NCBI GenBank assembly: GCA_965223005.1
Contig: CBDCVK010000009.1
Location: forward strand, 51,386 to 115,385
Source: Terriglobia bacterium
GTDB taxonomy: Bacteria; Acidobacteriota; Terriglobia; JAJPHL01; JAPKYU01
Length of the DNA: 64,000 bases
Reading direction: 5' to 3'
The notes under the pieces are model-generated. The model had not been told where the DNA came from and searched no databases. It saw only the letters and a list, made by a program, of their open reading frames with translations. Positions 26,884-61,869 of this stretch are shown piece by piece; position 1 is the stretch's first letter, and each line of letters opens with the position of its first letter. The translations under genes were made by a program, and so were the position numbers.

Positions 26884-27209
26884 ACAAAATAAGGAAGTTA
26901 AAAAGACAAGTCCTTGGGATAAAGATTACAAGGTAACAAGTAGGTAACGAAACCGCGGGTTGCAATGACATGTAATGGGAAGCCCAGGGCAGCACCGTTT
27001 TCAGTCTAGTCGGCCAAAGGAGCACGCAATTCGTGCGAGTTGGGACCCCACAGGCGGGAATTAAATGCTAGCCAGTTAGGCAGGATCTATCCGTACCCAC
27101 CCATCTAAGAAACGCTACACCATCCAGGCAGAACATAGGTAAACACTAGTCCCTTTGTGGGGACTATTGGCTTTTTGCGCCAGGTCTACTTCCCCGAAGG
27201 GAATCCAGG

Positions 27210-27243
27210 CACTTGTCCGGTTAGCGCGTTATACGTCCAACTG
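27210..27243 (+). repeat. 34-bp site A1 (class A, spacer GCGCGT)
   Basis: CACTTGTCCGGTTA GCGCGT TATACGTCCAACTG with conserved ~90-bp upstream flank. Confidence 0.9.
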
Positions 27244-27324
27244 GCGCACCGCTGAGCGGGTGGGGGTATGATCATTTCCGCCGCGCCTCGTTTTTGTGAA
27301 CTCGTACAAGGTTCCCATCTAGGA

Positions 27325-27410
27325 GGGCATTTACAAGCTGGCGCAGGCTGCGAGCGAAGCGGTCATAGCGGTAAACGACCACCGCGTCCACGCGGCGCTT
27401 CCGGCATCCG
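27325..27410 (-). pseudogene. Serine recombinase (resolvase) fragment
   Basis: RKRRVDAVVVYRYDRFARSLRQLVNAL matches the resolvase D-x-V-V-x-x-x-D-R-x-x-R motif. Confidence 0.65.
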
Positions 27411-27565
27411 GGGCCCGCTAAGGGAGTGGTGTGTTCAGAGACCAGAAAAAGGCGAATCGGGGACCCGAGCAAGGCCCCAAAGGCCCATGAACGCCCCTGG
27501 AAACGACTCGCACAGCTCCTCCAGAACGAAGCACTTTTATTTTTGCTGCGTTTTTCAGCACCCTG

Positions 27566-29002
27566 CTAGCGCACGAGGCGGGATTTTGGAAATTGGGCGT
27601 GCCAGCCGAACCAAAAGGCTCGGTGTGAAGGGAGGCGCTGTCGTCGTTCGCCCGAAGGGTGGATGAGCGCTTCCTCCCTCACTTCCCAAGCCTGGCCTTC
27701 TTCGTCGATGAGCAGCGAGTCCCGATTCCAATAAGCGAAGCTCACCCCGGTGGCATCGTGGACTCGATTGGCCCCCGACCGATCGGTCAAGATTACGAGA
27801 GGCTGGCTTCCAGCCCTTTCCTGATACAGTGGGTGCTTCTTCAGAAAAGAAGTGTCATAGGCGACCGCATTTCCCTTCAGCAGTAACGCAACGACTTCCT
27901 GTTTGTTCTTGAGCCGCTTGTCCTGAAAAGGAACCGGAAACATAAGGGCCTGGGTGGCAAAGTAATCTCGATAAGCGACGCCTTCCCTGTAATCCCTGTC
28001 ATGACCGGTTTCGAGCGACAGCACCTTGGTCCGCGGATGGCGCTGCTTCCACTCCTTCCAGGTGGTTGTGACAATGGGAAGTCGCTTCAACTGCAACCCG
28101 GAGCCCGTCAGCTTTCCGGTGACCGGAACTCCTTCCAGAGCCGACCACAGGGAACGGGTCTGACGGTCGTACATCAGTTTGTTGGACCGATAGATAAAGC
28201 CGCTGGTCCCGAAATCGAACTTCCGGCTTCCAATCCTTTGATCGTAAAGGACGGCGGACCCGCACAGGGTACAGTAGGCACAGGTCACATCGACGTCGCC
28301 AACAGTGTCGTTAAATAATTCATGCGCGGCCAGGATTCGCTTGGGATAAGCGCGGGCATCTCCATCGATAAAGACGCCGAAGACCACGTTCTTCTTGCCC
28401 AGATAGGTTGCCTCCCGGGCTTCGATGAACTTGGGATGCTCCAGAGGAGGAATCCCGTCCACTTTCACCCCTCCCCACACAATTTCATCCAGACGGATCG
28501 CGTGCTGCACCCCGGGGTAAAAAAACCAGCGAAATCGCTGGTCAATCTGCATATAGACCGCCTCTTTAAATCCCGGGTAGTCCGGGTGCATCTGGAATTC
28601 TTGCTGCCACATCCACTTTAGCCAGGTGTAGAAAGTTCGCTCCAACCTTTGCCCGGTTACCCGTTCGAGCATGCCCCACAGCCTCTTTGTGCGCAAATCG
28701 TTCGGAGGTAGAAATTGAATGACCTCCAGCACCATGGGCGCGAGACCTATTTCCCAACTGGATTCAATGATGGCCAGAGGCTCCGGCCGCGACGCCTTTC
28801 GCGGGTCCACGAAATCAGAAAGGGCCTGGACAGGATCATTCCCGGGAGAAGGGAGCCGTTGGCGAACCACCGCGGGAGCCTGCTCGATCGCACTCCCCTC
28901 TAACGCTTCAAAAGATCTGCCCCCAGCAATAACGCCGGATGCAAAAGCTACCAAACCTACCAGGATAAAAAACAACGTTGCGCTTCTAGAACGGATGAGC
29001 AT
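27566..29002 (-). CDS. DUF3179-family exported protein
   Basis: WGGVKVDGIPPL, RAYPKRIL..HELFND, YCTLCGS, SGFIYRSNKLMYDRQTRSLWS, FWFGWHAQFP; signal peptide. Confidence 0.85.
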   Translation of the reverse strand: MLIRSRSATLFFILVGLVAFASGVIAGGRSFEALEGSAIEQAPAVVRQRLPSPGNDPVQALSDFVDPRKASRPEPLAIIESSWEIGLAPMVLEVIQFLPPNDLRTKRLWGMLERVTGQRLERTFYTWLKWMWQQEFQMHPDYPGFKEAVYMQIDQRFRWFFYPGVQHAIRLDEIVWGGVKVDGIPPLEHPKFIEAREATYLGKKNVVFGVFIDGDARAYPKRILAAHELFNDTVGDVDVTCAYCTLCGSAVLYDQRIGSRKFDFGTSGFIYRSNKLMYDRQTRSLWSALEGVPVTGKLTGSGLQLKRLPIVTTTWKEWKQRHPRTKVLSLETGHDRDYREGVAYRDYFATQALMFPVPFQDKRLKNKQEVVALLLKGNAVAYDTSFLKKHPLYQERAGSQPLVILTDRSGANRVHDATGVSFAYWNRDSLLIDEEGQAWEVREEALIHPSGERRQRLPSHRAFWFGWHAQFPKSRLVR

Positions 29003-29285
29003 AACTGTATTGCCTCCTATCCCAAAAGTGGGTAGTAGCCCAGGCTCTGGCCAGTCATGGGAAGGCTCCCCTCTTGCCAGCGATCCTACGCCCCGCCCGC
29101 GGGCAAATCAACGTAGCGACTCGGCCAGTTGCAAGCGGCACGAGATACACTGCCTTGTCTCCAGTAATGCCGGATAGATTGCCCCTAACCCTCTAGTTCT
29201 TTCCGGTCCGGATGCCAACTCCCGAATGCTCGCCGACTCGGAAAGTACCCCAGCGCCTTGCGGCTCCTCGTCTAACGTCAGCGGT

Positions 29286-29319
29286 CACTTGGACGTATAG
29301 TCGGCTATCCGGACAAGTG
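29286..29319 (-). repeat. 34-bp site B1 (class B, spacer GCCGAC)
   Basis: Minus strand CACTTGTCCGGATA GCCGAC TATACGTCCAAGTG. Confidence 0.9.
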
Positions 29320-60749: not shown

Positions 60750-60861
60750 GGTTGTTCTCCCCCTCGGAAGCGAACGACCAAGGCTACACCCAGCGGGGTC
60801 GCGAGTCCAGGAATGCCGGATAGGTCGCCACTAACGGGCTAGCGTCTATCAATCCCGGTTT

Positions 60862-60895
60862 CACTTGGACGTATAGTCGACTATCCGGACAAGTG
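60862..60895 (-). repeat. 34-bp site B4 (spacer GTCGAC)
   Basis: Minus strand CACTTGTCCGGATA GTCGAC TATACGTCCAAGTG. Confidence 0.9.
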
Positions 60896-61047
60896 CCTAC
60901 CTTGAGGCGCTACCCAACCAGCGCCGACGCTGGGGCAGGCCGGGACTCGGTGGTAGGCTGCGCTGGCATTGGGGTCTACCGTGAGGAGACCTCGATCGCC
61001 TGAACTCGAATGATCCCGAATCGTGTAGAATTGTGTGGGAGGTGCGG

Positions 61048-61488
61048 ATGGCTGGAAGAATGGTGGTCATTGTGGTCGCGACGGTTATCATAGCTCTGAC
61101 ATTCGCACCACGTGCGGCATTGACCCAGGAAAAGAAGACGGAACGCATTGCCATTTCGGAACTGAAGAAAAAGCTCGACAGCGACGAGAAGTTCCTCTTG
61201 ATCGATGTCCGCGAGGACTGGGAAATGAAAAGGGACGGTGCGATCCCCGGTGCCATCCACATCTCGGTGGCCGAGCTCGACAAGCGGATGAAGGACATCC
61301 CCAAGAATATCCGGCTTGTCTTCTACTGACAGGGTGGGGGGCGCGCGTCGCGTGCTGCCGAGAAATTCGTCAGAGCGGGCTACAAAGCAGGTCAGTTTTG
61401 CGGCATTCGGGATTGGAAGAAAGAAGGTCAGAAGGTCGTTGAGAAGATAGACCGGCCGGCGGAAGGATCGATCCGGCAGAAGCGGTAG
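61048..61488 (+). CDS. Exported rhodanese-domain protein, probable selenoprotein (TGA at 61327-61329)
   Basis: LIDVRE, GAIPGAIHI, VFY-TGA-QGGGRASRAA...GIRDWKKEG continues in frame to TAG at 61486. Confidence 0.8.
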
Positions 61489-61688
61489 TAGATTCCCAGT
61501 CGGGACATGTCACAAGCGACGGTCGCAGACCGCCGCTTTTCTACGTTACCTGGACCGTCGTCCGAGGCCGCTGACCGAAGCAAGGGATACCCCACACAAT
61601 CCGGGCAGAACATACGTAAGCACTAGCCTGTTTGTGGGGACTATTGGCCTTTTTGCGCTAGACCTGCTTCCCCGAAGGCGATCCAAGG

Positions 61689-61722
61689 CACTTGTCCGGT
61701 TAGCGCGTTATACGTCAAAGTG
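61689..61722 (+). repeat. 34-bp site A6
   Basis: CACTTGTCCGGTTA GCGCGT TATACGTCAAAGTG. Confidence 0.9.
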
Positions 61723-61869
61723 GCCGGCGTGGCAGCATCGGTGAGTGCTAACCGACTAGTGGGAGACCTATCCGGCAAGTCTGAGTCAACTCTTGCCGTT
61801 TCATGGGTCACTCAGGCAAGCCTGCCAATTCTCTCCTGCGCTGCGGCTCTTCTGGCGCGGGCCCCCAAC

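What the first reader, a model, noticed from the sequence alone, without database searches (positions are those of the whole stretch)
27118..61800. Conserved accessory sequences around the core sites, with flanks reassorted across the core
Seen: A1, A2, A4, A5 and A6 share a ~75-90-bp upstream block containing box M (GGTAAACRCTAGCCCGTTTGTGGGGACTA; 27138, 38317, 43568, 57174, 61615) and, except where degenerate, a TTCCC-CGAA-GGGAA hairpin just before the core. Box M variants recur downstream of A2 (38439), A4 (43744), A5 (57300) and A6 (61740), and in reverse near B3 (50203-50221) and B4 (60822-60850). Downstream flanks come in two types (A1/A3: CACCGCTGAGCGGG...ATCATTTCCG; A2/A5/A6: GCAGCAT-box M). 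The same upstream block joins either type, and A3 has the A1 downstream flank with a different upstream. Inference: this is the footprint of crossovers within the core, and box M may bind an accessory or directionality factor, as with cer/psi accessory sequences or res subsites.
Basis: partly seen in the sequence, partly recalled or inferred. Interest (0 to 1): 0.75.

Follow-up and report, generated by a model that had tools for sequence, protein, structure and literature searches.

The report
Mosaic flanks around acidobacterial recombination-like sites
The repeated sequences are real: a 34-base site found across soil Acidobacteriota sits at the borders of gene modules, and the conserved DNA on its two sides has been swapped independently, which fits gene shuffling at the site, although no enzyme that does it was found.

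Summary
The window has nine copies of a 34-bp asymmetric site, CACTTGTCCGG-N12-ACGTCCAAGTG. Five are class A (centre GCGCGT, + strand) and four are class B (centre GCCGAC, - strand).

I collected 87 cores from this genome and two congeners. Each class follows a fixed layout. A cores have box M about 72 bp upstream and box M' about 51 bp downstream. B cores have M' about 69 bp upstream and M about 45 bp downstream.

Upstream and downstream flank types combine freely within a class, but no type is shared between classes. Neighbouring A and B cores are always inverted relative to each other (32 of 32). Modules shared between genomes lose homology at the core edge. One module, carrying a second rpoD copy, does so at both ends.

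The core is not dif. I found no structured RNA, no RAYT and no target-site duplications.

Best reading (about 0.45): these are borders of exchangeable gene modules, recombining only between like cores, and the flanks travel with their own side.

Weaknesses: no recombinase was identified, RecA recombination on the 34-bp identity is not excluded, and some cargo ends inside the flanks. An accessory role for box M is untested. About a third of boxes lack a core, and box M is no better conserved than the linkers.

The parts
27118..27290 (+). Extended site A1. Leader and box M at 27138-27166, TTCCCCGAAGGGAA at 27190-27203, core at 27210-27243, then the D4-type flank CACCGCTGAGCGGG...CATTTCCG.
29200..29319 (-). 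Site B1. Core at 29286-29319, with the D2-type flank to its left (accgctgacgttagacgaggagccgcaaggcgctg, then a degenerate second core-like stretch). The flank on the other side is unique.
38297..38460 (+). Extended site A2. Box M at 38317-38345, core at 38389-38422, and a truncated box M' from about 38438. It forms the left border of the rpoD-paralogue module.
41380..41540 (.). Doublet of B2 and A3. B2 core at 41380-41413 (- strand), a 27-bp linker, degenerate core A3 at 41441-41474 (+ strand, alternative left arm), then the D4-type flank. B2 forms the right border of the rpoD module.
43548..43770 (+). Extended site A4. Box M at 43568-43596, core at 43641-43674, D6-type flank, and box M' at 43743-43770.
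50086..50222 (-). Extended site B3. Core at 50086-50119, with the U1-type flank to its right, including box M' in reverse at 50195-50221.
57158..57327 (+). Extended site A5. Box M with a 5-bp insertion at 57174-57207, core at 57250-57283, GGCAGCAT linker, and box M' at 57300-57327. The 3' end of a Soli_cterm-type gene on the - strand follows.
60824..60908 (-). Extended site B4. Box M in reverse at 60824-60851 (D1 flank) and core at 60862-60895. The DUF7948/SBBP gene starts about 110 bp further left.
61586..61767 (+). Extended site A6. Box M at 61615-61643, core at 61689-61722, and box M' variant at 61740-61767.
38423..41379 (+). Cargo of the module between A2 and B2. It holds a 1.1-kb leader and a second copy of rpoD (39553-41256).

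Best explanation
The 34-bp cores mark the borders of exchangeable gene modules in the chromosomes of this acidobacterial genus. The 'accessory' sequences are the roughly 50-bp module ends that travel with the DNA on their own side of a core.

Anatomy, as shown by the sequence. Each core has two unlike inverted arms, CACTTGTCCGGnTA and TATACGTCCAAGTG, around a 6-bp centre. The centre comes in two forms, GCGCGT (A) and GCCGAC (B).

Mechanism (inferred). Exchange happens only between like cores. A circle carrying one A core and one inverted B core can then leave or enter at a resident A or B. This one rule would explain four observations:
- Left and right flank types reassort within a class.
- Flank types are never shared between the two classes.
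- A and B are always inverted relative to each other.
- One module sits between two copies of a 104-bp B-36 bp-A doublet.

The flanks are a mosaic of smaller units with a fixed layout: box M or M', linkers, and degenerate extra core copies. Whether they bind a factor is unknown.

Not shown: the enzyme. I infer an unidentified host tyrosine recombinase.
For: Abundance and spread
- The core occurs 28 times in this genome; the reversed-pattern control gives 0.
- It occurs 21, 38 and 5 times in the three congeners.
- An exact scan of one genome per species gave 23 stretches, all in Acidobacteriota. By my own estimate about 1 would be expected by chance.

Flank classes, 87 cores
- B cores combine U1 or U3 with D1 or D2 as 15, 10, 4 and 5.
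- A cores combine U2 or U4 with D3 or D4 as 11, 2, 3 and 2.
- The two sides are independent (p 0.46 and 0.53).
- No named flank class occurs in both core classes (87 cores).

Homology breaks at the core
- Of 15 pairs sharing downstream cargo, homology starts at core position 0 in 8 and at -1 or -2 in 3.
- The 4 pairs sharing upstream cargo end at +34, +37, +76 and +86.
- B2 and G001:C4:1195742 are 95% alike over 934 bp. They share the rare variant CCATGTG but differ in ATA/TAA and in upstream class.

The rpoD module
- Window 38387-41413 matches G001:C4:1199245-1195742, ending at the outer edge of both cores. There it lies between two B-36 bp-A doublets whose linkers match at 35 of 36 positions.

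Orientation
- 47 of 50 neighbouring pairs within 15 kb keep one polarity. All 32 A-B pairs are inverted, and 13 of 15 B-B pairs are direct.

Conservation and cargo
- Column identity is 0.87-1.00 in the core and falls to about 0.5 by 80 bp out.
- Cargo is one gene or a small operon of accessory type. Some is 99-100% identical between species while sitting in different contexts.
Against: - No recombinase gene lies consistently next to the sites, either in this genus or in five distant genomes (0 tyrosine or serine recombinases among 61 neighbouring ORFs).
- The only integrase genes touching cores are three truncated remnants.
- RecA recombination on the 34-bp identity, or on the 104-bp doublets, would give the same reassortment, polarity and duplicated doublets.
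- Some boundaries are not at the core. The MFS cargo is 99% identical in G001 and ends at the inner edge of the 35-bp D2 block, 285 bp from the A core. One G001 junction joins two downstream flanks with no core between them.
- Other small repeats are also scattered in these regions.
- The three genomes are close relatives, so the counts are not independent events.
Confidence: 0.45

Rival explanations
1. These are a BIME- or REPIN-like family of mosaic intergenic repeats. The mobile or ancestral unit is the inverted doublet (B core, 26-36 bp linker, A core), decorated with extra motifs such as box M. Flank reassortment and module shuffling would come from ordinary homologous recombination and gene conversion among dispersed copies, with no dedicated recombinase. 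The core would be conserved because a host DNA-binding protein uses it.
For: - Two core types always lie in opposite orientation with set linking motifs, as I recall for the Y and Z units of E. coli BIMEs.
- 19 of 57 B cores have an inverted A-type partner 26-36 bp away (classes U3 and U4).
- The 104-bp doublet folds as a long hairpin, z -5.8.
- All sites are intergenic.
- Box M and other short repeats also occur on their own.
- Some cargo boundaries lie away from the core.
- No recombinase is associated.
Against: - No Y1/RAYT transposase in G000 or in G003, the genome with most cores. G001 has only weak hits, far from any core.
- Single cores fold weakly: z -1.3 for A and -3.1 for B.
- In the window the two halves of a 'doublet' are separated by 0.8-9 kb of genes, which REPINs do not show.
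- Recombination on 34 bp of identity is inefficient, yet every flank combination exists.
Confidence: 0.3
2. The extended sites are attL, attR and attP-like scars left by integrative elements that piled up in tandem. The core would be the crossover site, and box M/M' would be arm-type sites for an integrase that has since been lost or acts from elsewhere.
For: - The core is flanked on both sides by direct-repeat boxes at fixed distances, an attP-like layout.
- Some sites have one conserved and one unique flank (11 B cores with a unique upstream flank, 9 with a unique downstream flank), as attL and attR would.
- Runs of B cores in direct orientation occur in G003.
- Three truncated integrase genes abut cores.
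- The window lies in an island next to tRNA-Pro, with a 46-bp direct repeat and an integrase remnant.
Against: - The tRNA-Pro island is bounded by the tRNA repeat, not by cores.
- No intact integrase lies beside any core examined.
- Cargo units are single genes with no phage or conjugation functions.
- This reading does not explain the strict inversion of A against B.
Confidence: 0.12
3. The repeat encodes or controls RNA, as a small RNA, a UTR element, a terminator or a promoter or operator shared by a regulon.
For: - The sites lie between transcription units.
- Within the window, B cores lie upstream of three - strand operons and A cores lie downstream of - strand genes.
- A hairpin with a UUCG loop would form on the - strand transcript.
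Against: - No Rfam match at gathering score over the whole window, and none at E up to 1 over 57100-61900.
- RNAalifold covariation terms are -0.13 and +0.05 kcal/mol on the two strands. Hairpin-breaking changes are not compensated.
- The extended site folds no better than shuffles, z -0.2 and -0.6.
- Across 87 sites, a crude ORF call shows no consistent orientation of neighbouring genes. Downstream of B cores: 15 same strand, 24 opposite, 18 none.
Confidence: 0.06

Closest known systems
dif modules bounded by pdif (XerC/XerD) sites in Acinetobacter plasmids. Seen as search listing and abstracts only: PMC13141974, PMC6449649, PMC10132070.
   Same: Short asymmetric sites of two arms and a 6-bp centre bound small accessory-gene modules. 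Neighbouring sites are inverted. The same module appears in different contexts. Sequence next to each half-site belongs to the module on that side.
   Different: The site is 34 bp, not 28 bp. It does not resemble the genus's own dif, TCTGATAAGAGATATTATGTCAACT. It lies on large chromosomal contigs. It has two centre classes that never share flanks. Direct B-B arrays also occur. Dependence on Xer is neither shown nor likely.
E. coli BIMEs (REP/PU mosaics) and REPINs with RAYT transposases (recalled, not read here).
   Same: Intergenic imperfect inverted repeats of two types in alternating orientation, joined by set linker motifs. They occur as inverted doublets that fold into long hairpins.
   Different: No RAYT in G000 or G003. 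Single cores fold weakly. The two halves are often kilobases apart with genes between them. Module homology ends at the cores.
Integron cassette arrays and attC sites (recalled).
   Same: Arrays of single-gene units in one polarity, separated by imperfect palindromes about 100 bp long (G000:C2:222300-231547).
   Different: The R''/R' consensus is not seen in the sequence. No integron integrase, attI or Pc was identified. Cargo also lies inside the 'palindrome', between B and A. Gene orientation is not uniform.
Accessory sequences of cer/psi, res subsites, and the DR1/DR2 motifs of the Tn4430 IRS. Abstracts only: PMC2847244 and 10.64898/2026.02.23.706985.
   Same: Conserved motifs at fixed distance and orientation beside a crossover-type core.
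   Different: The boxes lie on both sides of the core. Common flank classes lack them. They also occur without any core. No binding protein is known.

Membership tests
Xer/dif and pdif modules | 28-bp site (11-6-11) resembling the host's chromosomal dif. | tested here: not met
   The core is 34 bp (14-6-14). Canonical dif is a different, single-copy sequence in G001, G002, G003 and G005. Three of five more distant core-bearing genomes also carry a canonical dif. It was not found in G000, where it is probably unassembled.
Xer/dif and pdif modules | Modules bounded by sites in inverted orientation, with the same module found in different contexts. | tested here: met
   32 of 32 A-B neighbour pairs are inverted. 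The rpoD module is shared with G001, with both ends at cores.
Xer/dif and pdif modules | Recombination by XerC/XerD. | not testable with these tools
   XerC- and XerD-like genes are present, but the arms differ from dif.
REP/BIME/REPIN | Associated RAYT (Y1 transposase). | tested here: not met
   PF01797 gives 0 matches in G000 and G003. G001 has 2 weak matches, far from any core.
REP/BIME/REPIN | Two unit types alternating in orientation with set linkers; inverted doublets. | tested here: met
   Classes U3 and U4. Doublet hairpin z -5.8.
MITE | Terminal inverted repeats and target-site duplication around a discrete element. | tested here: not met
   The boxes flanking a core are direct, not inverted. 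By inspection, the sequences abutting module ends are not duplicated.
Integron cassettes and attC | Integron integrase with attI and Pc, and attC with the R''/R' consensus. | tested here: inconclusive
   No tyrosine recombinase lies beside the arrays. The consensus is not seen by eye. No dedicated integron search was run.
Accessory sequences of the cer/psi/res type | An accessory motif required at every functional site, at fixed geometry. | tested here: inconclusive
   The geometry is fixed: M at -72 and M' at +51 of A cores, M' at -69 and M at +45 of B cores, with no type found in the wrong position. However, classes U3, D2 and D4 lack boxes, and 32 of 91 boxes have no core nearby.
Structured RNA family | Rfam match or covarying helices. 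| tested here: not met

The most novel reading that the evidence does not exclude
Acidobacteriota may run a natural form of recombinase-mediated cassette exchange. Two sites with incompatible centres (A: GCGCGT, B: GCCGAC) in fixed inverted orientation would bracket gene modules. A host enzyme could then swap, insert or remove whole modules without inverting or scrambling them. Modules seen here carry surface proteins, transporters and even a spare rpoD. Box M and M' share their central bases with cores (TAGCCGACTA with B cores; GCCCGT with cores of other genera). They could be a second, nested tier of such sites.
Probability: 0.2. Interest if true: 0.85.

Novelty: new variant of a known kind. 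Interest (0 to 1): 0.6.

Why it matters
Acidobacteriota are among the most abundant soil bacteria, and little is known about how their accessory genes move.

If these sites are active, they are a chromosomal module-exchange system. It would resemble plasmid dif modules and integrons in outcome, but it uses a different site and an unknown enzyme. It moves surface-protein genes, transporters and sigma-factor copies between species at 99-100% identity.

The conserved 34-bp core is a concrete handle. It can be used for pull-downs, for finding the enzyme, and for mapping mobile modules in metagenome-assembled genomes.

If the sites are inert repeats, the finding is an ordinary, if elaborate, repeat family.

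Tried and rejected
1. The core as the chromosomal dif: rejected. The acidobacterial dif sequences predicted by Kono et al. (PMC3025954; passages and supplement rows seen) differ from the core. A canonical dif exists once each in G001, G002, G003 and G005. GC skew in G000 is too weak to locate a terminus.

2. RAYT-driven REPs: no Y1 transposase in G000 or G003.

3. Serine recombinases: 3 in G000, none near a core.

4. A recombinase next to the sites in five distant genomes: 61 neighbouring ORFs scanned, none a tyrosine or serine recombinase. The only mobile-element genes were IS256-, IS30- and IS110-type transposases, at one site each.

5. Structured RNA.

6. Promoter or terminator role judged from gene orientation: no consistent pattern. 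My ORF calling was crude.

7. Box M as a crossover point: 997 alignments through 91 boxes end mostly at box or core borders, with no pile-up at the box centre. Four of 13 A sites do lose the left half of box M at one point. This is left open.

8. Public sequencing runs: only short contigs of 4 runs could be laid. Joints at cores appear (50119 to 43641 in 3 runs; 60906 to 61687 with a doublet-type linker), but other copies of the repeat in the same genome can explain them. No verdict.

9. Phage origin: 0 matches in viral contigs. Four short metagenome contigs added nothing decisive.

10. Hybrid A/B sites: none among 87. The two odd centres, GCGGAC and ATA+GGGCGT, are single substitutions with flanks of one class.

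11. Literature: searches 'Acidobacteria / mobile genetic elements / tyrosine recombinase / repeat' and the dif and pdif searches listed no description of this repeat. Only listings and abstracts were seen.

12. Earlier notes of this scan: nothing relevant.
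Full report
WHAT IS THERE

The window is contig C9:51386-115385 of a 3.24-Mb acidobacterial assembly in 10 contigs, 96% complete. Named relatives are Acidobacteriota/Terriglobia MAGs.

The window holds nine copies of a 34-bp site, CACTTGTCCGG-N12-ACGTCCAAGTG, against none in 100 shuffles. 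The site reads as two unlike inverted arms around six central bases.
- Class A has centre GCGCGT: 27210, 38389, 43641, 57250 and 61689, all on the + strand.
- Class B has centre GCCGAC or GTCGAC: 29286, 41380, 50086 and 60862, all on the - strand.

The whole genome has 28 such cores. The reversed-pattern control gives 0. At least 8 more cores carry the alternative left arm.

Box M, the shared upstream block, the hairpin, the downstream box variants, the reverse boxes near B3 and B4, and the two downstream flank types are all at the stated places. Three small corrections apply:
- Box M of A5 has a 5-bp insertion.
- A4 has a third downstream flank type.
- B cores have conserved flanks too.

A WIDER SAMPLE

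The core occurs 21, 38 and 5 times in the three congeners. The last of these is only 62% complete. Genomes of other families in the class carry one to three copies.

An exact scan of one genome per species found 23 stretches, all in Acidobacteriota. By my estimate about one would be expected by chance. Five of those genomes, searched more loosely, have 3-9 copies each, often clustered.

In this wider set the right arm is constant in the matches examined, though my search patterns fixed it in advance. The outer left arm and the centre vary.

FLANK LAYOUT

I took 87 cores with their flanks from G000, G001 and G003 and clustered the 45 bp on each side.
- A cores have upstream classes U2 (box M plus hairpin), U4 (an inverted B core 36 bp away) and U7. 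Their downstream classes are D3 (GGCAGCAT plus box M'), D4, D6 and D7.
- B cores have upstream classes U1 (box M' plus linker), U3 (an inverted A-type core 26 bp away), U5 and U6. Their downstream classes are D1 (box M), D2 and D5.

Among 91 box copies the placement rule has no exceptions.
- M (centre GCCCGT) lies about 72 bp upstream of A cores (11 copies) or about 45 bp downstream of B cores (22 copies).
- M' (centre ACCGAC) lies about 51 bp downstream of A cores (11 copies) or about 69 bp upstream of B cores (7 copies).
- Boxes nearly always share the orientation of the adjacent core.
- 32 of the 91 boxes have no core nearby.

REASSORTMENT

Within each core class the two sides combine freely.
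- B cores: U1 or U3 with D1 or D2 gives 15, 10, 4 and 5 (Fisher p 0.46).
- A cores: U2 or U4 with D3 or D4 gives 11, 2, 3 and 2 (p 0.53).
- No named flank class occurs with both core classes.

Fifteen site pairs share at least 250 bp beyond the downstream flank. Their homology starts at core position 0 in 8 pairs, at -1 or -2 in 3, and at -13 to -38 in 4. Four pairs share upstream cargo, and their homology ends at +34, +37, +76 and +86.

One pair narrows the switch further. B2 of the window and G001:C4:1195742 are 95% alike over 934 bp downstream and share the rare right-arm variant CCATGTG. They differ in the left trinucleotide (ATA against TAA) and in upstream class.

MODULES

The stretch between A2 and B2 carries a 1.1-kb leader and a second copy of rpoD.
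- The gene scores as an NF004208 equivalog at 654 bits.
- Its protein is 97% identical to the copy at C10:704922-706622.
- The DNA is 98% identical to that copy over 1801 bp.

The same module lies in G001:C4. Homology runs from 2 bp before the A core to the last base of the B core. There it sits between two B-36 bp-A doublets whose linkers match at 35 of 36 positions. That is the structure expected if a circle carrying one A and one B entered a resident doublet.

Cargo elsewhere is a single gene or a small operon:
- DUF3179
- an MFS transporter
- an aldo-keto reductase
- a DUF1553/DUF1501 pair
- response regulators
- SBBP and BNR/BACON surface proteins with the Soli_cterm domain

Pieces of the window are scattered over the congeners rather than syntenic. 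Some are 99-100% identical there, such as the SSF symporter and the MFS gene.

POLARITY

Of 50 neighbouring core pairs within 15 kb, 47 keep one polarity.
- All 32 A-B pairs are inverted.
- 13 of 15 B-B pairs are direct.
- 2 of 3 A-A pairs are direct.

The genomes are close relatives, so these are not 50 independent events.

WHAT IT IS NOT

- Not dif. The genus has a canonical dif elsewhere, matching the predictions for other Acidobacteria in Kono et al. (supplement rows seen).
- Not RAYT-borne.
- Not a plain MITE. The boxes are direct repeats, and I saw no target duplication.
- Not a known or evidently structured RNA.
- Not tied to the orientation of neighbouring genes.

CONSERVATION OF THE FLANKS

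Column identity is 0.87-1.00 across the core and 0.86-0.99 for about 50 bp on each side. It falls to about 0.5 by 80 bp out.

Box M is no better kept than the linkers. The best-kept flank stretch is GTGACGCTGCC, in the U1 linker. The hairpin is broken in several copies without compensating changes.

So the flanks look like inherited module ends, or like parts of a 140-190-bp extended site. Nothing singles out box M as a binding site.

Box M does have its own inverted-repeat form: GGTAAACGCTA, six bases, TAGTGGGGACC. It also shares central bases with cores. It could therefore be a weaker site of the same kind. This is inference.

MECHANISM AND DOUBTS

One rule fits the pattern best: exchange only between like cores, acting on circles that carry one A and one inverted B. 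I rate this reading at about 0.45.

The main gap is the enzyme. No recombinase lies beside the sites in this genus or in five distant genomes. Only three truncated integrase genes abut cores.

RecA acting on 34 bp of identity, or on the 104-bp doublets, would leave the same footprints.

Not every boundary is at a core. The MFS cargo that is 99% identical in G001 ends at the inner edge of the 35-bp D2 block. One G001 junction joins two downstream flanks with no core between them.

Short public contigs could not settle whether the sites are active.

COMPARISON WITH KNOWN SYSTEMS, AND NOVELTY

The closest known systems are the dif modules of Acinetobacter plasmids and the BIME/REPIN repeats. This family shares the outcome of the first and the look of the second, but it fails a defining feature of each: the site is not dif-like, and there is no RAYT.

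I file it as a new variant of a known kind.

Noticed in passing
window 26807-26883 and 51276-51440: The 3' 46 bp of tRNA-Pro (26838-26883) is repeated exactly at 51276-51321. The 3' end of an integrase gene follows at 51322-51440; that gene is intact beside tRNA-Pro in G001. So 26884-51275 looks like a 24.4-kb island inserted at tRNA-Pro, ahead of an older, decayed one.
   Followed up: partly
window 39553-41256; G000:C10:704922-706622: The genome has two rpoD genes, 97% identical in protein. The window's copy sits in a site-bounded module inside the island. G001 has three copies, at 91-96% DNA identity to it.
   Followed up: partly
window 31224-32664 and 34005-36255: An IS256/Mutator-family element has many 100% identical copies in G001 and G003. 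The SSF symporter gene is 99-100% identical in both. This points to very recent exchange between these species.
   Followed up: no
window 57326-60749: The SBBP/DUF7948 surface-protein gene appears broken. DUF7948 is split between ORFs 60036-60749 and 57858-60032. The Soli_cterm tail lies in another frame, at about 57326-57870.
   Followed up: no
window 33734-34069: An orphan 3' end of a Soli_cterm-type gene, with the flank that normally follows an A core but no core. It abuts the 313-aa ORF at 32755-33696.
   Followed up: no
G000:C10:177994/178063, 180173/180241; C2:519261/519323: Box M and box M' also occur as back-to-back inverted pairs 62-69 bp apart with no core between them. One pair lies directly upstream of a gene start with a GGAGG ribosome-binding site.
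   Followed up: partly
G000:C2:222450-222583 (L125): A separate repeat of about 133 bp lies downstream of an A core. It has 2 copies in G000 but more than 15 matches in G001 and G003, including inside the rpoD modules of G001.
   Followed up: no
G000 whole assembly: The canonical dif found once each in G001, G002 and G003 is missing from G000. That assembly is also about 1 Mb smaller than G001 and G003, despite the 96% completeness estimate.
   Followed up: partly
L110 15610-15637 (G041), L113, L114, L119 (G042, G043): In distant Acidobacteriota the core is often followed, within a few bases or after a 30-35-bp insert, by a degenerate second core-like stretch (...TTTCCGAGT...). The same arrangement underlies flank classes D2 and D4 in the window.
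   Followed up: partly
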